32,000 nucleotides of DNA, taken from the NCBI GenBank assembly GCA_023898645.1, contig CP060232.1:450001-482000 (forward strand), given 5' to 3'. The notes under the pieces are model-generated. The model worked only from the letters and a program-made list of their open reading frames with translations, searched no databases and was not told where the DNA came from. Positions 1,042 to 21,636 of this stretch are shown piece by piece (position 1 is the first letter of the stretch; the number at the start of each line of letters is the position of its first letter). The position numbers and the translations under genes are program-made. The DNA comes from Candidatus Saccharimonadota bacterium (GTDB lineage: Bacteria; Patescibacteriota; Saccharimonadia; Saccharimonadales; Saccharimonadaceae).

Positions 1042-3258
1042 ATGATGAAATATTTAAAAAAATCTATTTACATTATTCTTAGCGTAGTGCTACTTTCGCC
1101 TATGCTTTTACCTTATTCACGTGCATTGGCCGATGGTTCCAACTTGATTGCCAACGCTTCTGTCGAGGCGGCGGCAAGTAACAAGCCACTTAACTGGACT
1201 ACAAATAGTTGGGGCACAAATACAGCTACATTTGATTATGCGACAACTGGTCATACGGGGAGTCGAAGTCTTTCTGTGTCCGTATCTAATTATACTAACG
1301 GTGACGCTAAGTGGATGGCTGATCAGGTCGCTGTAACTGCGGGTCAAACATACACGTATACTGATTATAGTAAGTCAAATGTTATGACTGAGCTCGATCT
1401 TGCATATATGAAAGCTTCTGGTGGCATGAGCTTTGTGTATCTTAAATCTATACCAGCAAGTAACACGTGGCAACAAACATCTACTACTTTTACAGTACCC
1501 GCAGGGATGGTGAGTGTTTCTGTGTACCATATTGTGTATTCTAACGGTTCAATGCAGACCGATGACTATAGTTTGACTCTGCAGGGCCAACCTACACCTA
1601 CACCTACACCTACACCTACACCTACACCTACACCTACACCTACACCCAACCTTATAGGGAATTCTTCGTTCGAAACGGCAAATGGAATTGATCCGGCAGG
1701 GTGGCATCGTGGCGGTTGGGGTACAAACACTCCTACATTTACGTACGCGTCAAGCAGTGCACGTACAGGTAGCCGTAGTGTAAGCGTTAGTCTGTCGAGT
1801 GTGAGCAGTGGTGATGTGAAGTGGTATGCCGATCCAGTACCTGTGAGTGTCGGCACGACGTACACGTATGAGGACTATTACACTTCAACCGTAGGTACTC
1901 GTGTTCTTGTGGCTATGACCAATACAAATGGTGTCAACAGTTACAGCGAGTTGACTGCCGCGCCAGCTGAAGCAACGTGGGCTCTTTATACGGATAGCTT
2001 TACCGTACCAGCTGGGATACAATCAGTTACTATTTATCACATACTTGATCAGGTGGGTACGTTGACAATTGACGACGTGTCGCTTGTTTCAGACACTAAA
2101 AGCACGCCTTCGACAGATGGACTTATAGCGAATAGTTCATTCGAAGATGCAACTGGAACGAAGCCGACGGGCTGGGCGACGGACAAATGGGGTTCAAACA
2201 CCGCTACGTTTACATACGTGCAAAACGATGGTCATACAGGCACTAGCAGTAGTAAGGTGACGATAAGTAACTACGTGAGCGGTGACGCAAAGTGGGACTT
2301 CACGCCAATCACCAACCTCGTACCTGGAAGTCAGTATAGCTTCTCGGCATGGTATAAGACGAATACTCAAGCTCATGTCGTAGCTACGTATGTAGACACT
2401 AATGGGGTTGATCAATACCTTACCCTTCCAAATCCAATTTCAGGCGGCGGTGCGGCGAACACTTGGCAGCAGTACAAGACCATTCTAGACGTACCAACAA
2501 ATGCCGTTTCGGTGTCAATCTATTTCCTTATCGCAAGTAATGGCTGGCTACAAACCGACGATTTCAGTCTGGATCCGTATACTCCGACTGGATTTGATGC
2601 GCCAATAATTAGTTTGACGTTCGATGATGGCTGGGACTCAATCTACACTAACGGATTGCCTTTATTACAAAAATACGGCCTTGTTTCAACCCAATATTTA
2701 ATTAGCGGTAAACTGAATACTCCGAATTACATGACAACAGCTATGGCTCAGGCATTTCTAGATTCTGGCAGTGAAATCGGGGCTCATACCGTTACTCATC
2801 CTGACCTAACGCAAATTAGTGGCGCACAGTTAACTGCAGAACTTAGTGGCTCACAAGCGACGCTTCGTCAACTTTTTGGAAATAATGTAGCGCAGACGTT
2901 TGCGTCACCTTACGGTACATACGATGCGACAACACTATCTGCTATAGGACAGTATTATCAGTCTCATCGCTCAACGGATGTTGGATATAATACGAAAGAC
3001 AATCTTAATATCTACAATATTATTTCACAGGATGTCACTACATCAACGACTCCTGCGGAGGTCGCTCAATGGGTCGCCAAAGCCAAAGCAGAGAAATCTT
3101 GGCTTGTCATCGTGTATCACGCAGTAACTAACATACCCAGTGATGATTATGCGACGAGTCCGGCTGATTTAGACGCAGAATTGAGTAATATTAAAGCCTC
3201 GGGTGTTAACGTTGAAACCGTCAGTCAAGCACTTGCTCATCTTACGGGCCAGCATTAA
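1042..3258 (+). CDS. Secreted polysaccharide deacetylase (CE4/NodB domain) with three N-terminal CBM_4_9-like carbohydrate-binding modules and a PT linker
   Basis: 738 aa with Sec signal MMKYLKKSIYIILSVVLLSPMLLPYSRALA/D. Three ~150-aa repeats each carry NLI(A/G)NSSFE...GW...WGTNT(A/P)TFTY...GHTGS(R/S)S..V..SNY.SGDAKW...TDD(Y/F)SL. The C-terminal CE4 motifs are LTFDDGW (TFDDG), GAHTVTHPD (H-S/T-x-x-H), SPYG and IVYH. Confidence 0.9.
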   Translation: MMKYLKKSIYIILSVVLLSPMLLPYSRALADGSNLIANASVEAAASNKPLNWTTNSWGTNTATFDYATTGHTGSRSLSVSVSNYTNGDAKWMADQVAVTAGQTYTYTDYSKSNVMTELDLAYMKASGGMSFVYLKSIPASNTWQQTSTTFTVPAGMVSVSVYHIVYSNGSMQTDDYSLTLQGQPTPTPTPTPTPTPTPTPTPNLIGNSSFETANGIDPAGWHRGGWGTNTPTFTYASSSARTGSRSVSVSLSSVSSGDVKWYADPVPVSVGTTYTYEDYYTSTVGTRVLVAMTNTNGVNSYSELTAAPAEATWALYTDSFTVPAGIQSVTIYHILDQVGTLTIDDVSLVSDTKSTPSTDGLIANSSFEDATGTKPTGWATDKWGSNTATFTYVQNDGHTGTSSSKVTISNYVSGDAKWDFTPITNLVPGSQYSFSAWYKTNTQAHVVATYVDTNGVDQYLTLPNPISGGGAANTWQQYKTILDVPTNAVSVSIYFLIASNGWLQTDDFSLDPYTPTGFDAPIISLTFDDGWDSIYTNGLPLLQKYGLVSTQYLISGKLNTPNYMTTAMAQAFLDSGSEIGAHTVTHPDLTQISGAQLTAELSGSQATLRQLFGNNVAQTFASPYGTYDATTLSAIGQYYQSHRSTDVGYNTKDNLNIYNIISQDVTTSTTPAEVAQWVAKAKAEKSWLVIVYHAVTNIPSDDYATSPADLDAELSNIKASGVNVETVSQALAHLTGQH
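1591..1644 (+). repeat. Perfect hexanucleotide microsatellite (CCTACA)x9 encoding a (Pro-Thr)9 linker
   Basis: Nine uninterrupted CCTACA units, in frame with the CE4 ORF, lying between CBM-like modules 1 and 2. Confidence 0.95.
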
Positions 3259-3278
3259 TCGAAATTATCTTCATTGCA

Positions 3279-3305
3279 ACAGTATATTTTAATAAAATAT
3301 ACTGT
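3279..3305. repeat. 27-nt perfect AT-rich palindrome in the CE4-GT2 intergenic region (operator or weak terminator candidate)
   Basis: acagtatatttta-a-taaaatatactgt has 13-nt arms around a single central base. It starts 21 nt after the CE4 stop and contains TATACT on both strands. Confidence 0.6.
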
Positions 3306-3331
3306 ACAAATTAACACAAATAGTGTATAAT
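3303..3331 (+). promoter_or_regulatory. Candidate promoter upstream of the GT2 gene
   Basis: TGTACA (3303-3308), 17-nt spacer, TATAAT (3326-3331). The -35 overlaps the right arm of the palindrome. This would give a ~90-nt leader. Confidence 0.35.
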
Positions 3332-3353
3332 AAATACGAAACGACGTAAGTGG

Positions 3354-3392
3354 AATAGGTGCCTTCTGTAATGGCGGTACCTATTTACTTTT
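3354..3392 (+). terminator. Hairpin plus U-rich tail: either the CE4 terminator or an attenuator in the GT2 leader
   Basis: Stem aataggtgcc (3354-3363) / ggtacctatt (3376-3385) gives 10 bp including one G-U pair. The loop is 12 nt and tactttt follows. Confidence 0.45.
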
Positions 3393-3425
3393 GTCAACAT
3401 TAATTAAATGAGCGAGAGGTGACAA

Positions 3426-4520
3426 ATGGTTGCAAAACCACGTGTAGTTGCATTGGTTCCGGCACACAATGAAGAAGATATTATCAAAGAGACGATAGCC
3501 TCTTTGATGACTCAGACATATCCTTTTACGTATGTTCTTATTATTGCCGATAATTGTACTGATGGGACTATTCGTATTGTAAAGCGAGCTCAGCGAAAAT
3601 ATGGTTCAAAAAAGTTACGCCTATTAGAGACCGTCGGAAATACTCACAAAAAGGCTGGTGCACTCAATCAGGGCTTTGAAATAACTCGCAAGAGTAGGCC
3701 GGACTTTATATTCGGCATGGATGCAGATACGATTATTGACTCTCAAATGGTAGAAGAGGCTGTTAAACAGTTTATGCTTGAACCAAATACGGCCGGTATC
3801 TGCTCGGCTTACCGTACACTTCCTCTTAAAAGTGAAGCAAGCTATTGGGAACGTTACCTGTGGAGGCTTCAAAATATCGAGTTTGGCCTCGCTAATGCAT
3901 GGAGGGTCGAAAATAATGATAGCGCTCGAGTACTTCCTGGCGTATCTGTCATGTTTAGAGCAAAGGCCTTGCGAGATGTCTACGAGCTCCATAAAGGAAT
4001 TGTTTGGGCTACGGATAGTCTCGTTGAAGATTATCGCCTTACTCTTGAACTGAAGGATCTAGGTTGGGACGCTAAATCATCACTTCGTATGATTTCTTGG
4101 TCAGACGTGCCATTACGCCTTTTTGGTAAGGCGGGCCTATTTGATCAACGTCAACGATGGTATAGCGGTACAGTAGATGAGTTGCGTCGTCGTGGTGCAA
4201 TGAAACATTCTCGCTACGAGTTGTTCACTATCGCACTGCTCGTCATAAACTTCTTGATGCGTCTGCTTCTTATTTCTGCCTACGTTACGATTATCGCAAT
4301 GGGCAATAGTATTCAGTGGATATCATTCTTCCTTTTTCTCCCCGTTGCAGCGGCGTCGATTCAATATTATCGATGGGTTAAGTATACCGATCAACGTGAC
4401 CGATGGCAGGGTGTTATGACGTTAGCGCTGATTCCGAACGAGCTGTACGCCATATTTAGAGAGTTTATTTACTTATATGCGATTTGGATTAGTTACAGAC
4501 GGCCTAATCGAGCATGGTAA
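3426..4520 (+). CDS. Family 2 glycosyltransferase, processive beta-glycan synthase type (cellulose, chitin or PNAG synthase-like)
   Basis: 364 aa with SD GAGGTGA upstream. Motifs are VPAHNEE, DNCTDGT (D), GMDADT (DxD), VEDYRLT (ED) and FDQRQRWYSG (Q-x-x-R-W), followed by 3-4 C-terminal TM helices (LFTIALLVINFLMRLLLISAYVTIIAM, WISFFLFLPVAAASI, LYAIFREFIYLYAIWI). Confidence 0.88.
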   Translation: MVAKPRVVALVPAHNEEDIIKETIASLMTQTYPFTYVLIIADNCTDGTIRIVKRAQRKYGSKKLRLLETVGNTHKKAGALNQGFEITRKSRPDFIFGMDADTIIDSQMVEEAVKQFMLEPNTAGICSAYRTLPLKSEASYWERYLWRLQNIEFGLANAWRVENNDSARVLPGVSVMFRAKALRDVYELHKGIVWATDSLVEDYRLTLELKDLGWDAKSSLRMISWSDVPLRLFGKAGLFDQRQRWYSGTVDELRRRGAMKHSRYELFTIALLVINFLMRLLLISAYVTIIAMGNSIQWISFFLFLPVAAASIQYYRWVKYTDQRDRWQGVMTLALIPNELYAIFREFIYLYAIWISYRRPNRAW

Positions 4521-4550
4521 AGATAAAGGAAAAAGAAAGGAGAGCATAAT

Positions 4551-4775
4551 ATGTACGTCCCAACAAATATGACACTTGTCGGCAGTTTGGCCCCAATTAC
4601 GACCGTGGATTTTTCACTTCATACGTTTCTCGGCGTCAGCTGGCTCGTTTTGTTGCCCTATACTGTTTTTGGTGTTGTGCTGATGGTTCACAGTCAAAGC
4701 AAGCTTATCCGTGGTGAGCGAGAGCTGAAGCGTCAGAACGACTCTATAGATGCACTAAGTATAACCCGTAAATAG
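4551..4775 (+). CDS. Small membrane protein co-transcribed with the GT2 (positional analogue of IcaD/PgaD-type accessory subunits)
   Basis: 74 aa. AAGGAG lies 8 nt upstream of the ATG, which is 30 nt after the GT2 stop. It has a hydrophobic segment FLGVSWLVLLPYTVFGVVLMV and a charged C-tail. No family recognised. Confidence 0.6.
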   Translation: MYVPTNMTLVGSLAPITTVDFSLHTFLGVSWLVLLPYTVFGVVLMVHSQSKLIRGERELKRQNDSIDALSITRK

Positions 4776-4788
4776 TGTATGATTCATT

Positions 4789-4827
4789 AAATAACACCCA
4801 GTTACACAAAGACTGGGTGGTGTTATT
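4789..4827. terminator. Hairpin between convergent genes (bidirectional terminator)
   Basis: aataacacccag ... ctgggtggtgttatt forms an imperfect ~12-bp stem between the 4775 stop (+) and the 4842 stop (-). Confidence 0.55.
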
Positions 4828-4841
4828 GCTATTTAAATACC

Positions 4842-5885
4842 TTACGAACCAACATAGGGGTAGTAGTAGATGGAGCCGATATCTAACGATGCAGGTAAAG
4901 CGCTGTTATCGATACCGTTACCTGGATAATGAGCGGTGTCCATTCCACCCCAGGTTCCGCCCATTGCTAGATTGACGATAAGATAAAAGGGCTGATCGAA
5001 CGGCCACGTTGTATAGTCTGCCTTTTTGGTGCGAGTGTATGTGTAGTACGGCGTATTATTAACAGCAAATGTAACGCTTGTCGGAGTCCATAGAAGCGAA
5101 TAGAGATTAAAACTTGCACTGTCATCAGGTACTTTTATAGTGCCAAATGATCCGGTGCCGTCGGGGTGACGATTAGCGTCTGATGCCGTATGAACGACTC
5201 CGTAGATAATATCTGGCTTAAATCCCACAGCTTCAACGATGTCAATTTCTCCGCCGTTTTTATAACGTGCGGTATTATTTATCGGACTTCTTTTGGCATA
5301 TTTGTCATTCGCTGGCAACAGCCAAATCGCAGGCCAGGTACCTACGCCACTCGGTAATTTGGCAGTTATATCTATTCTTCCATATAAAAATGATTGTTTT
5401 CCTTGGGTTTCAAGTCGCGCAGATCCGTATTGATATCCAGATGGCTGAGAATCATGACTTGCAATAAGGCGTAACGTTCCATTTTCTATTCTTAAGTTTG
5501 CAAAGCTATCGGTGTAATATTGTTGCTCATTATTGCTATTTTCGGCTGGTCCAACAAGAACGTTCCAGTATTTAGGATCGGGGAAACCAGATGTCTTGTT
5601 TGCGAAGTTTTGGAACCAACTCGGTTTGGTTGCAAAGAGGGGGTTGTATTGCGCGGGTGTGCTTAAGTTAGAGTCTACTGAAGCTACTACGTTTGGCATC
5701 TTTTCTTTAATAAGAGTACGGATTATATAAGGGTATGCAAACAAGAGGCTACATATTGTAACCATAATTACAAAAACGCCAGTGTTCGCCAGTGTCTTTT
5801 TTACTTTCAGTTTTCGCCGTCGCATACGTGCATTGCTTACTTTGCGGAACGGACGTTGCGATACGGCTGGAAGCAGACGATCCAT
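4842..5885 (-). CDS. Membrane-anchored GH16 beta-glucanase (laminarinase/lichenase-type)
   Basis: GEIDIVEAVGFKP matches the GH16 active-site pattern E-[LIV]-D-[LIVF]-x-E-x2-G-[KRNF]-x-P. The N-terminus is a basic tail plus TM (VFVIMVTICSLLFAYPYII). I place the start at ATG 5885 (MDRLL...) rather than ORF-track 5957, because a consensus promoter sits directly upstream of 5885. Confidence 0.88.
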   Translation of the reverse strand: MDRLLPAVSQRPFRKVSNARMRRRKLKVKKTLANTGVFVIMVTICSLLFAYPYIIRTLIKEKMPNVVASVDSNLSTPAQYNPLFATKPSWFQNFANKTSGFPDPKYWNVLVGPAENSNNEQQYYTDSFANLRIENGTLRLIASHDSQPSGYQYGSARLETQGKQSFLYGRIDITAKLPSGVGTWPAIWLLPANDKYAKRSPINNTARYKNGGEIDIVEAVGFKPDIIYGVVHTASDANRHPDGTGSFGTIKVPDDSASFNLYSLLWTPTSVTFAVNNTPYYTYTRTKKADYTTWPFDQPFYLIVNLAMGGTWGGMDTAHYPGNGIDNSALPASLDIGSIYYYPYVGS

Positions 5886-5891
5886 CTGTTT

Positions 5892-5920
5892 ATTATACGA
5901 TATATAATAAATATTGTCAA
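5892..5920 (-). promoter_or_regulatory. Consensus sigma70 promoter giving a leaderless GH16 mRNA
   Basis: On the minus strand: TTGACA (5920-5915), 17-nt spacer, TATAAT (5897-5892), 6 nt, ATG (5885). No SD. Confidence 0.6.
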
Positions 5921-5974
5921 TATTGTTATATATATTACACCTTATATTTTTAATCACTAAAGTGTGAGCTGCAC

Positions 5975-5983
5975 TGGTATACT
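5975..5983 (+). promoter_or_regulatory. Extended -10 promoter candidate for the GH6 gene
   Basis: TGgTATACT at 5975-5983. It lies ~15 nt upstream of the SD GGGAGG (5998-6003) and ATG 6009. Confidence 0.4.
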
Positions 5984-6008
5984 TAGAATTAGTGCAAGGG
6001 AGGTATAT

Positions 6009-7208
6009 ATGATTTTGGCACGCCGAAGTGCTACTTCTCGTTACCGGTACAGGAAGGTGATGAGATTACGACGATTTGCGAAGCGATGGAAGCTTCGTTC
6101 GGTGTATATGGTAGCAGTATTTTGTGTCATGTCTTTTTCAATCTCCACGATATTTTCAGCTATTAGCGAAGGAGCCGAAGTGGTATCACCTGAAAGACGC
6201 ATCGCGACAGCCTCAACGAATGGGAAGGCGGGTGTCTCAAGCCCCGTCAGCATTCAGAAGATGGAAGAAGTAAAAAGTACAAAAGCAGTCCTTGGGGCTT
6301 CTACGAATAAGCAGATTTTTAGCCAGATACCGCCAAAACCTTCGTGGGTTACTATGCCGCTATATACAGATCCTAATAACGGAGCGGCTCAATATATCGC
6401 TAAGAATCCTTCAATAAATGGCGCTAGTTATATAGAACGTATGGCGAAAGTTCCGGTTGCGCAATGGTTTGGCGATTGGAATTCAAACGTAAAAGTTGAT
6501 GTTGATAATTATGTTGCTGCCGCTGCGGCAAAAAGGAGCGTTCCTGTAGTGGTGGTGTATAACATTCCGCATCGTGATTGCGGAGGTTATTCAACTGGAG
6601 GTGCTAACAACTTTTCTTCATATACAAAATGGATCGAACAGGTCGCCGCCGGCATAGGTAATAGAACGGCAGTCGTAATATTAGAACCAGATGCGCTCGG
6701 TGCCCTTAACTGTCTTCCTTCGTCTCAAAGACAAGAACGAACTCAATCTATAGCTCAGGCAGTAACTATACTGAAGGCGCACGCCCAGACTGCTGTTTAT
6801 ATTGATGCGGGTACACCTGTTTGGCAACCTGTAAATGTAATGGCTTCACGTCTGAAGATTGCCAATGTGGCTGCGGCTAATGGATTCAGCTTAAATGTCT
6901 CATATTTTTCATCAACGGCTAAGAATCGAACTTACGGTAATCAACTTTCGAGTCTTATTGGTAACAAGCATTATGTCATTGATACGTCACGAAATGGCGC
7001 TAATCATGCAGTAACAGGTATGCAGTGTAATCCTTCTTTCGCCGCACTAGGTGAGATGCCGACGACGAATACAGGGAGTGCGTTGAACGATGCGTTACTA
7101 TGGATAAAAATTCCTTGGGAGTCGGACGGATCTTGTAATGGAAGTCCAGGTCCAGGTGAGGGATATTGGAGTTATGCTGTCGAGCTTGCGAAAAACGCTG
7201 GTTGGTAG
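6009..7208 (+). CDS. Membrane-anchored GH6 glycoside hydrolase (endoglucanase/cellobiohydrolase family 6)
   Basis: VVILEPDALG matches GH6 signature 2. VVYNIPHRDCGGYSTGG closely resembles GH6 signature 1 (V-x-Y-x2-P-x-R-D-C). The start is set at ATG 6009 (GGGAGG 5 nt upstream), not GTG 5964. The N-terminus is a basic tail plus TM (VYMVAVFCVMSFSISTIFSAI). Confidence 0.88.
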   Translation: MILARRSATSRYRYRKVMRLRRFAKRWKLRSVYMVAVFCVMSFSISTIFSAISEGAEVVSPERRIATASTNGKAGVSSPVSIQKMEEVKSTKAVLGASTNKQIFSQIPPKPSWVTMPLYTDPNNGAAQYIAKNPSINGASYIERMAKVPVAQWFGDWNSNVKVDVDNYVAAAAAKRSVPVVVVYNIPHRDCGGYSTGGANNFSSYTKWIEQVAAGIGNRTAVVILEPDALGALNCLPSSQRQERTQSIAQAVTILKAHAQTAVYIDAGTPVWQPVNVMASRLKIANVAAANGFSLNVSYFSSTAKNRTYGNQLSSLIGNKHYVIDTSRNGANHAVTGMQCNPSFAALGEMPTTNTGSALNDALLWIKIPWESDGSCNGSPGPGEGYWSYAVELAKNAGW

Positions 7209-15656: not shown

Positions 15657-16640
15657 ATGAAGAAACGGGGTAAGTCTTTTTGGAATCCAATTCGCGTAGC
15701 GATCTGTGTCGTGCTTTTGTTTGTTGCGGTCGGGGTGGCTCTTTGGGCGTACTTGCAGGGTAAAAATGTTGCCGTGCTAGATCCGCAAGGTGTCGTAGCG
15801 GCACACGAAAAAAGCCTCATGATCTTTACTCTTTTATTAAGTTTAGTGGTTGTCGTACCTGTATTTACTATGCTGTTTACAATCGCCTGGCGTTACCGCG
15901 AAGGCAACCCAAAAAAGGTAAAGTACACACCCGACGTTGACGGAAGTCGCTGGATGGAAACGCTCTGGTGGGGCGTCCCAATCGTTATCATCGGTATATT
16001 ATGCGTGGTGACATGGGTTAGTACGCATCAACTCGATCCTTACCGAGCTCTTGACTCCAAGGTTAAGCCATTTCGCGTACAAGTCGTCGCACTGCAGTGG
16101 AAGTGGTTATTTATCTATCCTGATTATCACGTAGCGTCGCTCAACCAACTTAAGATTCCTGCTAAAACACCTGTGAATTTTGAGATTACTGCAGACGGTC
16201 CTATGAGCGCATTTTGGGTGCCAAATCTTGGTACTCAGACATATGCTATGACAGGCATGTCTGCGCAGCTCAGCCTCATGGCCGATCATGCGGGCACGTA
16301 CCGTGGCAGCAATAGCAATATTAGCGGCACGGGGTATGCGGACATGACTTTTGACGTACAGGCCTTGCCAACACGACAGGCGTTCTATGAATGGGCAAAG
16401 TCGATTGCTAACGATCAGTGTCGTGAACACCTGGCCTGGGATGAATATGAACAATTAGCAAAGCCGAGTATAGTGAATCATGCTGTTTATTATCACCTCC
16501 ACGATGACAAGCTGTATACTGATGTGGTGAACAAATACATGATGACCGGTATGGATATGAATCGTATGAACATGAGTCACTCAGATGATCATGGCGGTGA
16601 TGATGATGTTGATGGAGGTAGTCAATGTGGGGTAGGTTAG
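15657..16640 (+). CDS. cyoA: Cytochrome o (bo3) ubiquinol oxidase subunit II
   Basis: 327 aa with two N-terminal TM helices and a cupredoxin fold lacking CuA Cys/His ligands (quinol-oxidase type). [27 protein letters not shown] is homologous to E. coli CyoA [27 protein letters not shown]. Confidence 0.9.
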
Positions 16641-18586
16641 GTCTTGACGCAATTCAGACCAATCCGGTTACATTGGGTGCTGTCGTTGGCGCTCTTGTCG
16701 GAGTATTGGCTGTTGTAGTCGGGCTGACATACTTCAAAAAATGGAGCTGGCTATGGCGCGAATGGTTGACATCTCTTGATCCTAAGAAAATTGGTGTCAT
16801 GTATATCGTCGTGGCGTTTATCATGTTGCTGCGAGGTTTGGCAGATGCGGCTATGCTACGAGCGCAACAGGCTGTTTTTGCGACTGGCCCGCATAGTCCG
16901 ATTTCTCCTGATATGTTTCAACAGGTCTTTACGGCACATGGTACGATTATGATCTTTTTCGTAGCCATGGGTATTATATTCGGAATTATCAATTTGATTA
17001 TGCCTCTCCAGATTGGAGCACGCGACGTCGCATTCCCCCTATTAAACGCCATTAGTTTTTGGTTGTTCGCAGCTGGCATGGTTCTCATAAACGTGAGCTT
17101 GGGGCTAGGTGAGTTTGCTGCTGCCGGATGGTTGGCGTACCCGCCACTTTCAGAACTGGCATACAGTCCGGGGACGGGGATTGATTATTGGATATGGAGC
17201 TTACAGATAGCCGGCATAGGTAGCTTACTCTCAGGTGTGAATTTCCTGGTTACGATCTTTACTATGCGCAGGCCCGGCATGACACTTATGAAAATGCCTG
17301 TATTCGTGTGGTCAGTAGTCGGTAGTTTATTGCTCGTTGCATTTGCGTTCCCCATACTCACGGCAACACTTGCCATGCTGGCACTTGATCGCACGCTCGG
17401 CATGCACTTCTTTACCGCCGACATGGGGGGCAATCCAATGATGTATATCAATTTAATTTGGGCTTGGGGGCACCCCGAGGTATACATTCTTGTTTTACCG
17501 GCGTTTGGTATATTTTCTGAAATCGTTCCCGTGTTTAGTCGCAAGAAGCTATTTGGTTATAAGAGCATGGTTTGGGCTATTATCGCCATTATGCTGCTGT
17601 CGTTTACTGTTTGGCTGCACCATTTCTTTACTATGGGCGCGGGCGCCGATGTTAATGCGTTCTTTGGCATTATGACCATGGTGATTGCCATACCTACGGG
17701 GGTTAAGGTCTTTAACTGGATATTTACTATGTATCGTGGTCGAGTGAGCTTTACTACACCAATGCTATGGTTCATGGGATTTGTAACGACATTTACACTT
17801 GGGGGCGTGACTGGGGTTCTCATGGCGGTACCCGGTATTGATTTTCAGGTCCACAACAGCCTGTTTTTGGTGGCCCACTTCCACAATATGATTATTGGCG
17901 GAGTTGTCTTCGGCGCCTTTGCAGGATTTGCCTACTGGTTCCCGAAGTTTACAGGTTTTCGTTTGCACGAAGGCCTAGGAAAAATTGCCTTTTGGTGCTG
18001 GCTAATCGGTTTCCTTGTCGCGTTTATACCACTTTATATTCTTGGCTTTATGGGTGCCGTACGACGACTTGATCATTACGATCCGAGTCTTGGGTGGCAG
18101 GGGCTGTTCATCGTTGCCGGCGTCGGTGTGATGATTATTCTAATCGGTGTGCTCTTCCAGGTGCTTCAACTCGCCTACAGTATATGGAAGCGAAAGGAGC
18201 TTGCTGTCGGTCCTGATCCATGGGATGCTCGCACGCTTGAGTGGTCTACATCTACGCCAATTCCTGAGTACAACTTCGCTACGCTCGATGCGGTACACAC
18301 TCGTGACGCCTTTTGGACTATGAAGCATTCACACAAGGAAAAGAAGTCGGTAAAGTATGAGCCGATTCACGTACCAAAAAACACTGGTTTTGGCGTGTAT
18401 ATCGGTGCCATCGCATTCGTCATTGGCTTTGCAATTATCTGGCATATTTGGTGGTTGATGGCCGTTGGTTTTATGGCCTTGATCGCAACTGTTGTAGCAT
18501 CGACGCAACGCGAGGATACCGAAAAGACATTTTCCGTACATCAAATTACTGCTACTGAAGCTAAGTTATGGGGTACTGATGTATGA
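16625..18586 (+). CDS. cyoB: Cytochrome o ubiquinol oxidase subunit I
   Basis: 653 aa. The N-terminus [11 protein letters not shown] resembles E. coli MFGKLSLDAV. The heme and CuB ligand motifs [22 protein letters not shown] and [11 protein letters not shown] are all present. It overlaps cyoA by 16 nt. Confidence 0.95.
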
Positions 18587-19167
18587 GTGAGAAAACTGAA
18601 GTAGTCGCACTGCTCAATAGGACGACCGTTGGATTCTGGTTGTATCTCATGACTGACTGTATATTGTTTGCGAGTTTGTTTGCTACATATGTAGTGTTGA
18701 GGGGTGAGACGGCAGGCGGGCCAAGTGGTCACGAAATCTTTGAAATGCCAACGGCGCTCGCTGAGACTATTATTCTGTTGACGAGTAGCTTCACGAGCGG
18801 AATGGCGCTCATAGCTATGAAACAAAAGAATATTCGGCAGTTGTATGTTGCTCTTGCCGCCACGTATCTGCTGGGTGTATCATTCCTGACTATCGAAATA
18901 AGTGAGTTTTCCAAATTTGTGGCCGAAGGGCACGGCTGGCAACAAAGTGCGTTTTTGTCGTCATTCTTTACGCTGGTTGGTACGCATGGACTTCACATAC
19001 TGACTGGACTTATTTGGCTATTGGTATTGGTGACGGTCTTGGCACGCAAAGGCTTGACGGATAAGTTGGTACGACAAATGACGCTCTTTGGTTTGTTTTG
19101 GCACTTCCTTGACTTGGTATGGATATTTATCTTCACGGTTGTATACCTCATAGGAGTTGCTACATGA
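18583..19167 (+). CDS. cyoC: Cytochrome o ubiquinol oxidase subunit III
   Basis: 194 aa, 5 TM helices, ATGA overlap with cyoB. It has heme-copper oxidase subunit III-like helices ([13 protein letters not shown]). Confidence 0.9.
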
Positions 19168-19508
19168 GAACTAGATATGTAGCTGGGTATGTACTGTCAC
19201 TCATCCTGACACTCTTGGCTTATGATGCTGTAGTTAATCATTTCACGTATGGTTTTCAGCTATTACTTTTACTTGGTGTGTTGGCTGTAATCCAAGCGGT
19301 TGTGCAGCTGGTGTTCTTCCTTCACATAGATCAAGAAAGCGGTCCGCGATACAAGCTCATTACATTTTTAGTCATGATAGTTATGCTGCTTATCGTAGTG
19401 GTTGGGTCATTCTGGATTATGTACCATCTTAATTACAACATGATGCAATTGTCGCCAGACGCAAAGACGAACTTGATGCTCAACAAGTACGATAAGGGCG
19501 GCTTCTAA
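19164..19508 (+). CDS. cyoD: Cytochrome o ubiquinol oxidase subunit IV
   Basis: The start is set at ATG 19164 (ATGA overlap with the cyoC stop), giving 114 aa with 3 TM helices. YVAGYVLSLILTLLAY resembles E. coli CyoD YMTGFILSIILTVIPF. Confidence 0.85.
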   Translation: MRTRYVAGYVLSLILTLLAYDAVVNHFTYGFQLLLLLGVLAVIQAVVQLVFFLHIDQESGPRYKLITFLVMIVMLLIVVVGSFWIMYHLNYNMMQLSPDAKTNLMLNKYDKGGF

Positions 19509-19546
19509 ATAACTATATCTTCGATGACGTAGGTTGCTGTTTAAGA

Positions 19547-19555
19547 TGATAGAAT
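19547..19555 (+). promoter_or_regulatory. Extended -10 promoter giving a leaderless cyoE mRNA (internal operon promoter)
   Basis: TGaTAGAAT (19547-19555), 7 nt, ATG 19563. No SD. Confidence 0.45.
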
Positions 19556-19562
19556 AGTTATC

Positions 19563-20429
19563 ATGGAACGGCGGACGAAATCTTACCTGCAGTTGATCAA
19601 GCCGGGAATTACTCTTAGCAATAGTATGACAGCGGCCGCTGGGTTTTTTCTTGCAGCTAGTCAGTTTGGGTTTTCGTGGTCGCGATTCGCCGGCACGATA
19701 GGTGGTGTGGCGTTAATTATTGCATCCGCCTGTGTAGTGAATAATATCTATGATCGAAACATTGACGCAAAGATGAGTCGGACGAAGGGCCGTGAAATAG
19801 CGTCTGGGCATATTACACTTCAAATGGCCGCACTCTATGCGATGGCGTTGGGATCATTAGGGCTGTGGTTGCTATATACGTTTACGAATCAAACTACGGT
19901 GCTTCTTGGGTTATTGTCATATTTTTGGTATGTCGTCGTGTATAGTGTCGCCAAACGTACGACACCTTTATCGACAGTTATTGGTGCAGTGTGTGGCGCG
20001 TTACCCCCGATGGCAGGATACGCGGCTTTAGCGGGCAAGATTGACGATACAGCTTGGGTGTTGTTTTGGGTTCTTATGGTTTGGCAGTTGCCACATTTTT
20101 ACGCGATAGCAATTTTCCGAGAAAACGACTATCGTAAAGCTAATTTGCCGGTGTGGTCTGTGTTGCTTGGGGCTGAAAATACCAAGGCTCAGATATTGTT
20201 TTGGGTTGCTGTATTTACAATCGTCGTTGCGCTACCTTCAGTAATTGGGGCGACAGGCAACATATATCTAACTGTTATGCTTGCGCTGAGTGTGTACTGG
20301 TTGGCGCAGGGTGTTTGGTACTATCGACGTGAAAAAACTGATCGATGGGCAAAGCGCATGTTCGGTATCTCACTTGTTGTGCTTTTGACTTTTTGCGCCA
20401 TGATAAGCGTTGGCGGAATCATAGCATAA
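19563..20429 (+). CDS. cyoE: Protoheme IX farnesyltransferase (heme O synthase)
   Basis: 288 aa, UbiA-family polytopic membrane protein with NNIYDRNIDAKMSRT (NxxxDxxxD) and a second Asp-rich region. It sits immediately downstream of cyoABCD. Confidence 0.9.
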   Translation: MERRTKSYLQLIKPGITLSNSMTAAAGFFLAASQFGFSWSRFAGTIGGVALIIASACVVNNIYDRNIDAKMSRTKGREIASGHITLQMAALYAMALGSLGLWLLYTFTNQTTVLLGLLSYFWYVVVYSVAKRTTPLSTVIGAVCGALPPMAGYAALAGKIDDTAWVLFWVLMVWQLPHFYAIAIFRENDYRKANLPVWSVLLGAENTKAQILFWVAVFTIVVALPSVIGATGNIYLTVMLALSVYWLAQGVWYYRREKTDRWAKRMFGISLVVLLTFCAMISVGGIIA

Positions 20430-20448
20430 GTGCTATTATTGAAACAAT

Positions 20449-21636
20449 ATGAAAATTACTATAGTAGGTGGCGGCTTCGGTGGTGTCAAAACAGCACTCG
20501 AACTGTCCAAGAACAAACACAATCGAATCACGCTTATCAGCGATAGGCCTGACTTTCAATATTATCCCGCACTATATGGCACAGCGACTGGCCATAGTCA
20601 TTTAGAATCATGGGTACCGCTTGGCACGATTTTTGCTGGCAAAATGAATGTCGATGTCGTGATTGACAATATTACGTCGCTCGACCCCAAAGTCAAAACC
20701 TTACAAAGCAAAAATGGAAACACGTATCACTACGAACATTTAGTGCTAGCACTTGGGGCAGTTACAACATACTTCGGCATCGAAGGACTTGATCAATACG
20801 CATTCGGTATTAAGTCTGAGGAAGAGATCAAGGAACTGAAACACCATCTGTATCAAGAAATAGCCGAACAACATGAAGTCGAAAAACAATACGTTGTAAT
20901 TGGCGGTGGCCCTACGGGCGTTGAGCTAGCATCGGCACTCGGCTCATACATTACACGCCTTTGCGGACATCATAAAGTTCCGCACGGTCGAATTGGAATT
21001 ACACTTGTAGAGGCGGCTCCTCGTATATTGCCACGGATGCATCCAACGACGAGCAAAAGGGTGGCGGAGCAGCTTCGGGAATTAGGCGTTAAGGTTCAGG
21101 TTAATAAAAAAGTTGAGTCCGCTACTGTTGATGGGTTGGTGGTGAATGGCAAGCCGCTTTCGAGTCATACGATTATATGGACATCCGGTGTCGCTAATAA
21201 TCCATTCTTTGCTGCAAATAGTGAACATTTTGAACTTGCTAAGAACGGCAAGGTTGTGGTTAATGATTATTTGCGAACTAAAGACGGTATCCATGTAATT
21301 GGAGACAACGCCTTTACGCCATATAGCGGTCTTGCGCAGACGGCACTTCATGACGCGCTCTTTGTCAGTCGCAATTTTGCCCGATGGCAGTCTCATAAGT
21401 CGCTAAAGAAATACAAGCCAACAACACCAGTTGTTAGTATTCCTGTAGGTAAGAATTGGGCGGTATTTGAGTGGCATTGGGTTAGGTTCTACGGCTGGCC
21501 GGCGTCGCTTATACGGCAAGCTGCAGATTTTATTGGCTATCATGACATTCTTCCTGTCGGTCAGGCGCTTGGCGCATGGCGTGCGCAGACGGTCATCGAG
21601 GAAGATTACTTTACGCCAACCCCTCAAGAGCAATAG
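20449..21636 (+). CDS. ndh: Type II NADH dehydrogenase (NDH-2) / FAD-dependent pyridine nucleotide-disulfide oxidoreductase
   Basis: 395 aa with two Rossmann GxGxxG motifs (IVGGGFGGV and VIGGGPTGVELA) and GD at VIGDNA. It starts 19 nt after cyoE. TGcTATTAT lies 9 nt upstream of the ATG. Confidence 0.85.
   Translation: MKITIVGGGFGGVKTALELSKNKHNRITLISDRPDFQYYPALYGTATGHSHLESWVPLGTIFAGKMNVDVVIDNITSLDPKVKTLQSKNGNTYHYEHLVLALGAVTTYFGIEGLDQYAFGIKSEEEIKELKHHLYQEIAEQHEVEKQYVVIGGGPTGVELASALGSYITRLCGHHKVPHGRIGITLVEAAPRILPRMHPTTSKRVAEQLRELGVKVQVNKKVESATVDGLVVNGKPLSSHTIIWTSGVANNPFFAANSEHFELAKNGKVVVNDYLRTKDGIHVIGDNAFTPYSGLAQTALHDALFVSRNFARWQSHKSLKKYKPTTPVVSIPVGKNWAVFEWHWVRFYGWPASLIRQAADFIGYHDILPVGQALGAWRAQTVIEEDYFTPTPQEQ

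What the first reader, a model, noticed from the sequence alone, without database searches (positions are those of the whole stretch)
1042..7208. CE4 deacetylase + processive GT2 synthase + micro-membrane protein, flanked by membrane-anchored GH16 and GH6: candidate minimal exopolysaccharide or attachment system
Seen in sequence: the GT2 (3426-4520) has the full D / DxD (MDADT) / ED (VEDYRL) / QRQRW set followed by 3-4 C-terminal TM helices. This is the architecture of processive membrane beta-glycan synthases such as BcsA, PgaC/IcaA, NodC and HAS. A 74-aa TM protein with a strong SD starts 30 nt downstream, in the position IcaD or PgaD occupies next to IcaA or PgaC. A secreted CE4 enzyme with intact TFDDG and HxxxH motifs and three carbohydrate-binding modules lies directly upstream, in the role of IcaB or PgaB. 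Two beta-glycanases, both N-terminally membrane-anchored, lie immediately downstream. This matches the common pairing of a synthase with a cognate hydrolase, as with bcsZ beside bcsA or the endoglucanase cslZ beside cslA-glxA in Streptomyces. There is no Wzx/Wzy, ABC exporter, PilZ domain or outer-membrane component. Inference: a stripped-down synthase-dependent pathway that makes, partly deacetylates and trims a beta-linked surface polymer. If the organism is an epibiotic reduced-genome bacterium, such a polymer could serve for adhesion to the host or a matrix. I do not know of a characterised system with this composition in this lineage. An alternative reading is a catabolic locus for acetylated xylan or chitin and beta-glucans, with the GT2 functionally unrelated.
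Basis: partly seen in the sequence, partly recalled or inferred. Interest (0 to 1): 0.7.

Follow-up and report, generated by a model that had tools for sequence, protein, structure and literature searches.

The report
Conserved surface-glycan synthase module in Saccharibacteria
A small, unusually built sugar-polymer synthase, its one-helix partner protein, a deacetylase and one or two beta-glucanases travel together as a conserved gene module in environmental Saccharibacteria, and most likely make and remodel a cell-surface polysaccharide whose chemistry nobody has tested.

Summary
Corrections: GH16 is on the minus strand; GH16 and GH6 probably start at 5885 and 6009; the GT2 has at most three C-terminal helices and no N-terminal one.

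The genome is a Saccharibacteria MAG, labelled 'Nomurabacteria' at NCBI.

GT2, the small TM protein, GH16 and CE4 stay adjacent in at least six different gene orders. This holds down to 54-56% GT2 identity, while the flanking genes differ. Unbiased clustering of ORFs around GT2 recovers only these five families. GH6 is an accessory member, found in 10 of 22 loci.

The 74-aa ORF is a real gene under purifying selection. It belongs to a family of only 18 clusters among 1.8 billion representatives.

D, DxD, ED and QRQRW are invariant in 66 GT2 homologues. The AlphaFold model matches hyaluronan, cellulose and chitin synthases. It matches almost as well a non-processive archaeal mannosyltransferase of the same minimal build. 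The nearest curated family is PgaC/IcaA, far below its cut-off, so this is not a Pga/Ica or Bcs system.

Best reading (about 0.55): a minimal two-piece synthase with tethered remodelling enzymes. The polymer is unknown: either GlcNAc-based or a beta-1,3/1,4-glucan. This is a new variant of a known kind.

The parts
1042..3258 (+). Secreted or anchored CE4 deacetylase. N-terminal signal or anchor helix (aa 1-22). Three CBM4_9/CBM22-like beta-sandwich repeats (about aa 33-180, 203-350, 361-512), with a (PT)n linker at aa 183-200. CE4 catalytic domain at aa 520-735.
3303..3331 (+). Promoter of the GT2-microprotein operon (TGTACA-17-TATAAT with an extended -10, TGTATAAT). Conserved in related loci as TTTAC[AT]-17-TAGTGTATAAT.
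3343..3395 (+). Leader hairpin flanked by an A-rich and a U-rich tract, lying between the promoter and the GT2 start codon. Candidate attenuator or terminator.
   Evidence: dG -24.9 kcal/mol, z -3.4; equivalent hairpins in other loci
3426..4520 (+). GT2 synthase-like glycosyltransferase, 364 aa. N-terminal GT-A domain with D46, D99xD101, E201-D202 and Q241RQRW245. Interface helices, 2-3 C-terminal TM helices, and an invariant C-terminal R362/W364.
4551..4775 (+). 74-aa single-pass membrane microprotein. Conserved core LH.f.G.SW..L.PYT..G..LM.YSQ.RL.RGQ, with a basic C-terminal tail, so predicted N-out/C-in. Candidate synthase subunit.
4790..4826 (.). Hairpin between the convergent ends of the microprotein gene and GH16. 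Probable bidirectional terminator.
4842..5885 (-). Membrane-anchored GH16 laminarinase-type endo-beta-1,3(4)-glucanase. Maximal ORF runs to 5957; probable start is ATG 5885. TM helix at aa 54-83 of the maximal ORF; catalytic EIDIVE.
5892..5920 (-). Perfect sigma-70 consensus promoter (TTGACA-17-TATAAT) for GH16. The -10 ends 6 nt before ATG 5885, which suggests a leaderless or near-leaderless mRNA.
6009..7208 (+). Membrane-anchored GH6 endo-beta-1,4-glucanase. Maximal ORF starts at 5964; probable start is ATG 6009, behind SD AAGGGAGG. Accessory member of the module.

Best explanation
This is a conserved, self-contained module of environmental Saccharibacteria for making and remodelling an extracytoplasmic beta-linked glycan.

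Proposed mechanism (inferred from fold and motifs):
- The GT2 is a minimal member of the membrane-embedded, QxxRW-type family-2 synthases. It polymerises a UDP-sugar at the cytoplasmic face of the membrane.
- The co-translated 74-aa single-pass protein is its obligate membrane partner. It may supply in trans the N-terminal transmembrane helix that PgaC, NodC and HAS carry in cis. With it, and possibly with oligomerisation, the glycan passes through or is presented at the membrane.
- Outside the cell, the CE4 enzyme is held on the glycan by three CBM4/9/22-like modules and removes acetyl groups.
- The membrane-tethered laminarinase-type GH16 cuts or trims the polymer at the cell surface. In a subset of genomes the GH6 endo-beta-1,4-glucanase does so too. 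BcsZ, CslZ and PssZ play this role for their synthases.

Shown: gene content, motifs, fold, co-conservation, and purifying selection on the microprotein.
Inferred: processivity, export, the GT2-microprotein contact, action of the hydrolases and CE4 on the cell's own product, and any role in adhesion.

The polymer is not identified. The GT2's nearest relatives and the CE4 point to a GlcNAc polymer that becomes partly deacetylated. The two hydrolases point to a beta-1,3/beta-1,4-glucan.

No c-di-GMP module is present. A conserved promoter-plus-hairpin leader suggests that control is transcriptional.
For: Co-conservation:
- tblastn of the window proteins on 19 Saccharibacteria loci finds CE4, GT2, microprotein and GH16 together wherever the flank allows. 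The window's flanking genes are not found in those loci.
- More distant clades keep the same set in other orders. L017 has CE4(-) GH16(-) GT2 micro. L021 has GH16 CE4 GH16 GT2 micro. L023 has GH16 GT2 ... CE4(-). L007 has CE4 downstream and inverted.
- Unbiased ORF clustering over 22 loci gives GT2 in 21, GH16 in 19, CE4 in 17, microprotein in 12 (strict cut-off) and GH6 in 10. The next family is in only 4.

GT2:
- The motifs are invariant in 66 homologues. PF13632 and PF13641 are above gathering.
- The AF2 model has pLDDT 92.6.
- Top Foldseek matches are Xenopus and Chlorella-virus HAS (TMq up to 0.73), BcsA and chitin synthases.
- A profile of the motif half hits only chitin synthase PsChs1 in the PDB. 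It aligns VLPG, ED, S/TDVP and QRxRW.
- All 66 homologues have PgaC_IcaA as their best NCBIfam family; 51 of 66 also hit NodC.

Microprotein:
- It lies 0-55 nt after GT2 in every locus, overlapping the GT2 stop in L021. It has a conserved TM core.
- dN/dS is about 0.1.
- The family has only 18 clusters among 1.8 billion representatives.

Extracellular enzymes:
- Catalytic residues are intact and N-terminal anchors are present.
- CBM folds are supported.

Precedent: the GH6 CslZ is divergently encoded next to the cslA-glxA synthase genes of Streptomyces (PMC9040799).
Against: - The GT2 has only 2-3 C-terminal helices and no N-terminal TM. From my own knowledge of the published structures, BcsA and HAS build their channels from six or more helices, so an autonomous translocon is doubtful.
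- Foldseek matches the non-processive PcManGT, which has the same minimal build, nearly as well (TMt 0.62-0.68, 20% identity).
- PF13506 (GT21, which includes lipid glycosyltransferases) is also just above gathering.
- GH16 and GH6 are ordinary-looking laminarinase and endoglucanase homologues. They share about 50% identity with catabolic enzymes. Soil Saccharibacteria have been interpreted as degraders of cellulose and fungal beta-1,3-glucan (PMC6031116).
- The hydrolase specificities (glucans) and the GT2/CE4 affinities (GlcNAc) do not point to one polymer.
- The genes are not one transcription unit.
- No GT2-microprotein contact could be modelled.
Confidence: 0.55

Rival explanations
1. The GT2 is not a polymer-exporting synthase. 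It is either a non-processive or short-product enzyme of the minimal 'half-tunnel' type. On this reading it adds sugar(s) to a polyprenyl phosphate or a membrane lipid (as PcManGT, HpnI or GT21 glycolipid synthases do), or it makes short oligosaccharides (as NodC does). The microprotein helps bind the lipid acceptor. The product is a lipid-linked glycan or lipoglycan, which the extracellular enzymes then process.
For: - The architecture equals that of PcManGT: an N-terminal GT-A domain and about 3 C-terminal helices. Foldseek gives TMt 0.62-0.68 and the highest identity in the list, 20%.
- There are only 2-3 TM helices.
- PF13506 GT21 is above gathering. HpnI and NodC appear among the NCBIfam hits.
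Against: - QRQRW and the ED motif are invariant. They align to a processive chitin synthase, whereas PcManGT aligns by sequence only over the nucleotide-binding half.
- The best full-length NCBIfam matches are polymer synthases.
- The conserved partners carry polysaccharide-binding modules and endo-glycanase folds, which suit a polymer rather than a lipid head group.
Confidence: 0.22
2. The locus is essentially catabolic. The cell-anchored GH16, GH6 and CE4-CBM enzymes harvest exogenous fungal, plant or host beta-glucans, chitin or acetylated xylan. The GT2-microprotein pair has an unrelated job, such as cell-envelope glycosylation. It sits there through shared regulation or by descent.
For: - GH16 and GH6 are close homologues of characterised laminarinases and endoglucanases.
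- The closest solved structures to the CE4 domain are acetylxylan esterase domains.
- Extra GH16 and CE4 paralogues accumulate around the locus in L003, L013 and L021.
- Published genome interpretations of soil Saccharibacteria stress degradation of cellulose and 1,3-beta-glucan.
- The hydrolases have their own promoters and strands.
Against: - The GT2-microprotein pair is never found without GH16 next to it in any locus with enough flank.
- The set survives at least six rearrangements while the flanks turn over.
- No sugar transporter, kinase or phosphorylase is a conserved neighbour, as a utilisation locus would predict.
Confidence: 0.18
3. The adjacency is phylogenetic inertia among closely related genomes and carries no functional meaning.
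For: All loci come from one phylum, and many share the same gene order.
Against: - There are six different orders and orientations.
- Flanking genes are not conserved.
- GT2 identity goes down to 54-56%, and microprotein identity down to about 33%, with the association kept.
Confidence: 0.05

Closest known systems
PgaABCD (E. coli) and IcaADBC (Staphylococcus) poly-beta-1,6-GlcNAc systems
   Same: - A QxxRW GT2 synthase.
- A small membrane protein encoded directly after it.
- An extracytoplasmic CE4 deacetylase.
- PgaC_IcaA is the best-scoring curated family for all 66 GT2 homologues.
   Different: - Scores are far below the equivalog cut-offs: 89 vs 422 bits for PgaC/IcaA, 24 vs 248 for IcaB and 21 vs 322 for PgaB.
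- The GT2 lacks the N-terminal TM segment of the PgaC/IcaA model, because the alignment starts at model position 44.
- The microprotein has one TM helix and matched no Pfam-A or NCBIfam family at E<=0.01.
- There is no c-di-GMP link and no PgaA porin.
- The partners here are GH16 and GH6, not a GH153 domain.
Streptomyces CslA-GlxA-CslZ (cellulose-like tip glycan) and MatAB (PNAG)
   Same: - A Gram-positive-type synthase with a membrane-tethered GH6 hydrolase encoded divergently beside it (PMC9040799).
- MatB combines GT2 and CE4 functions (own knowledge).
- Actinobacteria are typical hosts of Saccharibacteria (own knowledge). The GH6 is closest to actinobacterial enzymes: M. tuberculosis CelA1 and T. 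fusca E2.
   Different: - No GlxA-like copper oxidase or LPMO is present.
- CslA is a multi-TM BcsA-like protein, and only 3 of 66 homologues touch the CelA model.
- GH6 is accessory here. The constant hydrolase is GH16.
NodC-NodB (rhizobial chitooligosaccharide synthase plus CE4 deacetylase) and eukaryotic chitin synthases
   Same: - GT2 next to a NodB-homology deacetylase.
- NodC is hit by 51 of 66 homologues.
- The motif half aligns only to chitin synthase in the PDB.
- NodC also has few TM helices, 1 N-terminal plus 3 C-terminal (own knowledge). That equals GT2 plus the microprotein in number.
   Different: - NodB is cytoplasmic, whereas this CE4 is secreted and carries three CBMs.
- No NodA or NodIJ is present.
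- The score is 35 vs 550 bits.
- The N-terminal helix, if it is equivalent at all, is a separate gene here.
PcManGT (Pyrobaculum calidifontis; PDB 6yv7), the 'minimal cellulose-synthase-like fold'
   Same: Same size and layout: about 350 aa, an N-terminal GT-A domain, interface helices and three C-terminal TM helices. It gives a strong Foldseek match.
   Different: - PcManGT is a GDP-mannose, dolichyl-phosphate-dependent, non-processive enzyme of an N-glycosylation cluster (own knowledge of Gandini et al. 2020; the paper is not in the searchable library).
- Sequence similarity is limited to the nucleotide-binding half.
- The genomic context is entirely different.
Other Gram-positive synthase-plus-hydrolase EPS loci (Listeria pssA-E/pssZ, Bacillus ydaJ-N, clostridial ccsABZ)
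   Same: The logic is the same: a membrane GT2 synthase, small membrane partner(s) and a cognate glycoside hydrolase, with no outer-membrane component (own knowledge).
   Different: Those systems use GH8 or GH5 hydrolases, c-di-GMP receptors and multi-TM synthases. None of these was found here.

Membership tests
Membrane-integrated processive family-2 glycan synthases (BcsA / HAS / chitin synthase / NodC / PgaC class) | GT-A domain with D, DxD, (T)ED and QxxRW motifs | tested here: met
   D46, D99-A-D101, E201-D202 and Q241-R-Q-R-W245 are invariant in 66 homologues. PF13641 and PF13632 are above gathering.
Membrane-integrated processive family-2 glycan synthases (BcsA / HAS / chitin synthase / NodC / PgaC class) | Overall fold, including interface helices and TM region, superposes on solved synthases | tested here: met
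   AF2 pLDDT is 92.6. Foldseek gives probability 1.0 and TMq 0.60-0.73 to HAS, BcsA and chitin synthases. The non-processive PcManGT also matches.
Membrane-integrated processive family-2 glycan synthases (BcsA / HAS / chitin synthase / NodC / PgaC class) | A transmembrane channel formed by the enzyme's own helices (six or more in BcsA and HAS) | tested here: not met
   Only three C-terminal helices, two of them strongly hydrophobic, and no N-terminal TM. A fourth helix could come from the microprotein, or more from oligomerisation, but this was not testable.
Membrane-integrated processive family-2 glycan synthases (BcsA / HAS / chitin synthase / NodC / PgaC class) | Processive polymerisation coupled to export | not testable with these tools
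   Needs biochemistry.
PgaC/IcaA poly-beta-1,6-GlcNAc synthase (TIGR03937 equivalog) with PgaD/IcaD and PgaB/IcaB | Score at or above the curated equivalog cut-offs for synthase and deacetylase | tested here: not met
   PgaC_IcaA scores 89.3 vs 422.3 bits, IcaB 24 vs 248 and PgaB 20.6 vs 322. It is the best family for all 66 homologues but never near the cut-off.
PgaC/IcaA poly-beta-1,6-GlcNAc synthase (TIGR03937 equivalog) with PgaD/IcaD and PgaB/IcaB | Small partner homologous to PgaD or IcaD (two TM helices) | tested here: not met
   The microprotein has one TM helix and no Pfam or NCBIfam hit. The analogy is positional only.
Bcs cellulose synthase system | BcsA with a PilZ domain, BcsB, and a GH8 BcsZ | tested here: not met
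   There is no PilZ, BcsB or GH8 in the window. The CelA model is touched by 3 of 66 homologues only.
Streptomyces CslA-GlxA-CslZ | A GH6 hydrolase beside the synthase, plus a GlxA copper oxidase | tested here: inconclusive
   GH6 is present and membrane-tethered, but only in 10 of 22 loci. No GlxA-like gene is a conserved neighbour.
PcManGT-like or polyprenyl-phosphate GT2 enzymes (non-processive) | N-terminal GT-A plus three C-terminal TM helices forming a half tunnel; single sugar transfer to a lipid-linked acceptor | tested here: inconclusive
   The architecture and fold match. Sequence similarity covers the N-terminal half only. I could not verify whether PcManGT has a QxxRW motif. Activity is not testable.
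GH16 laminarinase subfamily (endo-beta-1,3(4)-glucanases) | ExDxxE catalytic motif and close similarity to characterised laminarinases | tested here: met
   The motif reads EIDIVE. It scores 188 bits (E 2e-54) to Rhodothermus laminarinase 3iln, and beta-1,3(4)-glucanases come next.
GH6 endo-beta-1,4-glucanases | GH6 domain with the catalytic Asp motifs | tested here: met
   PF01341 scores 187 bits. It scores 215 bits to M. tuberculosis CelA1. PHRDCGG and ILEPDAL align.
CE4 (NodB-homology) metal-dependent deacetylases | TFDD, HxxxH and LxH motifs; RxPY motif | tested here: met
   F527-D-D-G530, H582/H586 and H693 are invariant. PF01522 scores 86 bits. The Arg of the RxPY motif is replaced (FASPYG). 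R643 is invariant elsewhere in the domain, with unknown consequence.

The most novel reading that the evidence does not exclude
GT2 plus the 74-aa protein is the smallest two-piece glycan synthase-translocon yet seen, with 3 + 1 TM helices. The N-terminal channel helix of NodC, PgaC or HAS has become a separate, co-translated microprotein. With its dedicated tethered deacetylase and glucanases it builds a chitosan-like or mixed beta-glycan coat or holdfast. That structure mediates attachment of free-living or soil Saccharibacteria to their hosts or substrates. Control is by a conserved leader terminator rather than by c-di-GMP.
Probability: 0.3. Interest if true: 0.75.

Novelty: new variant of a known kind. 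Interest (0 to 1): 0.55.

Why it matters
- Saccharibacteria and other CPR bacteria live attached to other cells. What they attach with, beyond type IV pili, is largely unknown.
- A conserved, compact and experimentally tractable module could provide a candidate adhesin or matrix polymer for environmental lineages. Two genes would do synthesis and two or three would do remodelling.
- For glycobiology it offers a natural 'minimal' synthase: no N-terminal helices, and a single-pass partner. This bears on how few helices are needed to couple polymerisation to membrane passage, and on where the line runs between processive synthases and PcManGT-type lipid glycosyltransferases.
- If instead the hydrolases prove purely catabolic, the finding reduces to an unexplained but robust gene linkage.

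Tried and rejected
- Co-folding GT2 with the microprotein as a read-through translation of 3426-4775.
- Word-index protein search with the microprotein. It found only itself. The exhaustive HMMER search was needed.
- phmmer of the C-terminal half of GT2 against the PDB gave no hit. Only a profile reached chitin synthase.
- PF02018 in the window's own CE4 was not detected even at E<=10. This was settled through homologues and fold.
- RNAalifold on the GT2 leaders, run twice, predicted no consensus pairs because MAFFT puts the hairpins out of register. Per-sequence folding was used instead.
- Rfam gave nothing at gathering and only noise at E<=1.
- Literature searches combined Saccharibacteria or Patescibacteria with glycosyltransferase plus deacetylase, exopolysaccharide plus cellulose synthase, PgaC, or GH16/GH6. 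None describes this module. Starr et al. 2018 only mention a 'capacity for biosynthesis of cellulose'.
- The original PcManGT paper is not in the library, so whether that enzyme has a QxxRW motif could not be checked.
- Rejected: membership of the Pga/Ica or Bcs systems, because the cut-offs are not met.
- Rejected: a single five-gene operon, because of strands and promoters.
- Rejected: P0254 as a natural GT2-microprotein fusion. It looks like a frameshifted fragment.

Full report
**What is there**

The window comes from a Saccharibacteria genome of about 1.13 Mb. The GT2 and the 74-aa protein are identical to NCBI entries labelled 'Candidatus Nomurabacteria' (locus tag H6797_02225 for the small one). 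Every relative at 54-87% identity is from Saccharibacteria or Saccharimonadales MAGs.

All five ORFs of the finding exist and carry the stated domains.
- The CE4 protein (1042-3258) has an N-terminal hydrophobic helix, three roughly 150-aa repeats and a C-terminal PF01522 domain. The Asp-Asp, His-His and His residues of that domain are invariant in 61 homologues.
- Pfam does not recognise the repeats in this copy. Most homologues carry PF02018 CBM_4_9. The AF2 model (pLDDT 90.6) shows three beta-sandwiches that match tandem CBM22 modules. The catalytic domain matches an acetylxylan-esterase CE4 and a peptidoglycan GlcNAc deacetylase.
- The GH16 (minus strand) has the ExDxxE site (EIDIVE). It scores 188 bits to the Rhodothermus laminarinase 3iln.
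- The GH6 scores 215 bits to M. tuberculosis CelA1 and 181 bits to T. fusca endoglucanase E2, with the catalytic motifs aligned.
- Each hydrolase has one N-terminal TM helix preceded by a basic stretch.

**Corrections to the anatomy**

- GH16 is on the minus strand. It converges on the GT2 operon, and a strong hairpin lies between them (4790-4826). GH6 is transcribed divergently from GH16.
- A perfect TTGACA-17-TATAAT promoter on the minus strand (5920-5892) lies inside the maximal GH16 ORF. Its -10 ends 6 nt before ATG 5885, so GH16 probably starts there, possibly on a leaderless mRNA.
- GH6 probably starts at ATG 6009, behind AAGGGAGG.
- The GT2 domain begins at residue 5. The ORF cannot be extended upstream. 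Homologues with longer N-termini have polar extensions, not TM helices.
- AF2 gives three C-terminal helices (260-291, 300-320, 336-358) after the QRQRW interface helix. Only 264-307 is strongly hydrophobic.

**Is the association real?**

- A scan of one genome per species gave 19 Saccharibacteria loci. tblastn with the window's proteins finds CE4, GT2, the small protein and GH16 together wherever the contig extends far enough. GH6 appears only in the closer relatives. None of the window's flanking genes (175-aa upstream protein, SDR, PAP2, RmuC) appears, apart from a distant SDR.
- Three more distant lineages were fetched individually, and they keep the same families in different orders:
  - L017 (GT2 56% identical): CE4(-) GH16(-) GT2(+), then a 74-aa one-TM ORF 25 nt later.
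  - L021 (417-aa clade, 54%): GH16, CE4, GH16, GT2 and a 98-aa ORF that overlaps the GT2 stop and carries the same H-G-W...LM-YS-H-KL-GKR core.
  - L023: GH16(+) GT2(+) ... CE4-CBM4_9(-).
- In L007 and L013 the CE4 gene has moved or flipped but stays adjacent.
- L020, found through a 33%-identical microprotein, again has GT2-micro-GH16(-).
- An unbiased clustering of all non-nested ORFs in 22 loci finds exactly five recurrent families: GT2 in 21, GH16 in 19, CE4 in 17, the microprotein in 12 (at a strict cut-off) and GH6 in 10. The next most frequent family occurs in 4 loci.
- The core module is therefore GT2 + microprotein + GH16 + CE4, with GH6 as an accessory member.

**The microprotein is a gene**

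- It is found 0-55 nt after GT2 with a Shine-Dalgarno sequence. It has a conserved core, LH.f.G.SW..L.PYT..G..LM.YSQ.RL.RGQ, and a variable basic tail.
- Synonymous sites are saturated while dN is 0.15-0.4. Where it can be computed, dN/dS is about 0.1.
- An exhaustive HMMER search of 1.8 billion representatives finds only 18 clusters. The family is small and lineage-restricted, and it matches no Pfam or NCBIfam model.
- By the positive-inside rule its N-terminus is outside and its tail is cytoplasmic. From my own knowledge, that is the orientation of the N-terminal helix of NodC. Whether it plays that helix's role in trans is inference.

**What kind of GT2?**

- D46, D99xD101, E201-D202 and Q241RxR244W245 are invariant in 66 homologues. 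So are many polar and aromatic residues in the membrane part, and the C-terminal R362 and W364.
- PF13641, PF00535 and PF13632 are above gathering. PF13506 (GT21) is just above.
- All 66 homologues have PgaC_IcaA as their best NCBIfam family (best E 9e-30), 51 hit NodC and only 3 hit CelA. Nothing approaches an equivalog cut-off.
- The AF2 model (pLDDT 92.6, pTM 0.88) is most similar to Xenopus and Chlorella-virus hyaluronan synthases (TMq up to 0.73), BcsA and fungal or oomycete chitin synthases. It also resembles PcManGT (6yv7; TMt 0.62-0.68; highest identity, 20%).
- By sequence, PcManGT and the other non-processive GT2s align only over the nucleotide-binding half. A profile of the motif half (residues 120-300) hits only the chitin synthase PsChs1. 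It aligns VLPG, ED, S/TDVP and QRxRW (E 0.004).
- On balance the enzyme belongs with the QxxRW synthases, nearest to the GlcNAc-transferring ones. It has the stripped-down membrane domain of PcManGT. As I recall from Gandini et al. 2020, that domain was described as 'half' of the BcsA tunnel and was proposed to bind a lipid-linked acceptor. This is the main reason my confidence is not higher.

**What polymer?**

The evidence splits.
- For a GlcNAc polymer that is partly de-N-acetylated:
  - The closest families are PgaC/IcaA, NodC and chitin synthase.
  - A CE4 deacetylase is constantly present.
  - No acetyltransferase is present that could O-acetylate a glucan.
- For a beta-1,3- or mixed beta-1,3/1,4-glucan:
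  - The constant hydrolase is a laminarinase-type GH16.
  - The accessory hydrolase is an endo-beta-1,4-glucanase.
  - The CBMs are of the CBM4/9/22 type.
- I cannot resolve this with sequence tools.
- The pairing of a synthase with a tethered, divergently encoded GH6 has a documented precedent in Streptomyces cslA-glxA-cslZ (PMC9040799).

**Regulation (side observation)**

- GT2 has its own conserved promoter: TTTAC[AT]-17-T(A)GTGTATAAT, at 3303-3331 in the window.
- About 13-30 nt after that promoter (42 nt in L021), where a promoter could be identified, there is a stable hairpin flanked by A-rich and U-rich tracts, ahead of the start codon. In the window it lies at 3343-3395, with dG -24.9 kcal/mol and z -3.4.
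- The stem sequences differ between loci while the hairpin persists. This includes L007, where CE4 is not upstream.
- Z-scores for the eleven hairpins folded from other loci range from -0.7 to -8.2, with a median near -2.6.
- This looks like a leader terminator or attenuator, and no Rfam family matches. Alignment-based covariation could not be shown.

**Comparison with what is known, and novelty**

- The module works like a synthase-dependent exopolysaccharide system of the Gram-positive kind: synthase, small membrane partner and cognate hydrolase or deacetylase, with no outer-membrane parts.
- It is not a member of the Pga/Ica, Bcs, Csl or Nod systems by any curated criterion tested.
- Its distinctive points are:
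  - a synthase without N-terminal helices and with only 2-3 C-terminal ones;
  - a single-pass, lineage-specific partner;
  - a laminarinase-type GH16 as the constant hydrolase;
  - a triple-CBM CE4;
  - no c-di-GMP module.
- I found no paper that describes it. One genome paper mentions a 'capacity for biosynthesis of cellulose' in a soil saccharibacterium, and treats the beta-glucanases as catabolic (PMC6031116).
- I rate it a new variant of a known kind and of moderate interest. The linkage is solid and the biochemical meaning is open.

Noticed in passing
window 3303-3425 (+); equivalent regions upstream of GT2 in L001-L008, L012-L014, L017, L019, L021: A conserved promoter with an extended -10 is followed within about 13-42 nt by a stable hairpin flanked by A- and U-tracts, before the GT2 start codon. 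Stem sequences differ between loci. It is also present where CE4 is not upstream (L007). This is a candidate leader attenuator or terminator controlling the GT2-microprotein operon, and no Rfam family matches. Per-locus z-scores run from -0.7 to -8.2. RNAalifold found no consensus because of alignment register problems.
   Followed up: partly
window 5883-5920 (-): A perfect sigma-70 consensus promoter (12/12) has its -10 ending 6 nt before an in-frame ATG of GH16. This implies a leaderless or near-leaderless mRNA and a shorter protein than the maximal ORF. CE4 likewise has a promoter-like site ending 12 nt before its ATG, with no Shine-Dalgarno (1001-1029).
   Followed up: partly
window 15657-21636 (+): There is an aerobic respiratory gene set: cytochrome bo3-type quinol oxidase subunits II, I, III and IV, a UbiA-family heme O synthase and an NDH-2-like flavoprotein. 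This is unusual for CPR bacteria in general, but has been reported for soil Saccharibacteria (PMC6031116).
   Followed up: no
whole window; NCBI names of P0001 and P0121: The source MAG is labelled 'Candidatus Nomurabacteria bacterium' at NCBI. Yet all close relatives of GT2, CE4 and the microprotein are Saccharibacteria or Saccharimonadales, so the taxonomic label is probably wrong. Short contigs with the same module are binned as Verrucomicrobiia (L015) and Mycobacterium (P0168), which is probably mis-binning.
   Followed up: no
P0254 (151 aa, from the representative library): This predicted protein joins the C-terminal membrane part of the GT2 to the microprotein through an unrelated 40-aa stretch. 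It is most likely a frameshift or assembly artefact rather than a natural fusion.
   Followed up: partly
L021, L022 and L023; proteins P0087-P0101 (417-437 aa): One clade of the GT2 family carries an insertion of about 55 aa, charged and probably helical, in the GT domain after the 'R..AL.DV' segment. In L021 three GH16 genes surround the GT2.
   Followed up: no
window 1588-1647 (+), CE4 aa 183-200: A (Pro-Thr)n linker lies between the first two CBM-like repeats (pLDDT < 50). Its repetitive DNA creates long spurious antisense ORFs rich in Arg-Cys and Gly-Val.
   Followed up: no
window 2899-2916 (+), CE4 aa 620-625: The Arg of the CE4 'RxPY' motif is replaced (FASPYG), and this holds throughout the family. 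Another Arg (R643) is invariant instead. The effect on catalysis is unknown. From memory, PgaB/IcaB-type deacetylases also deviate at this motif.
   Followed up: no
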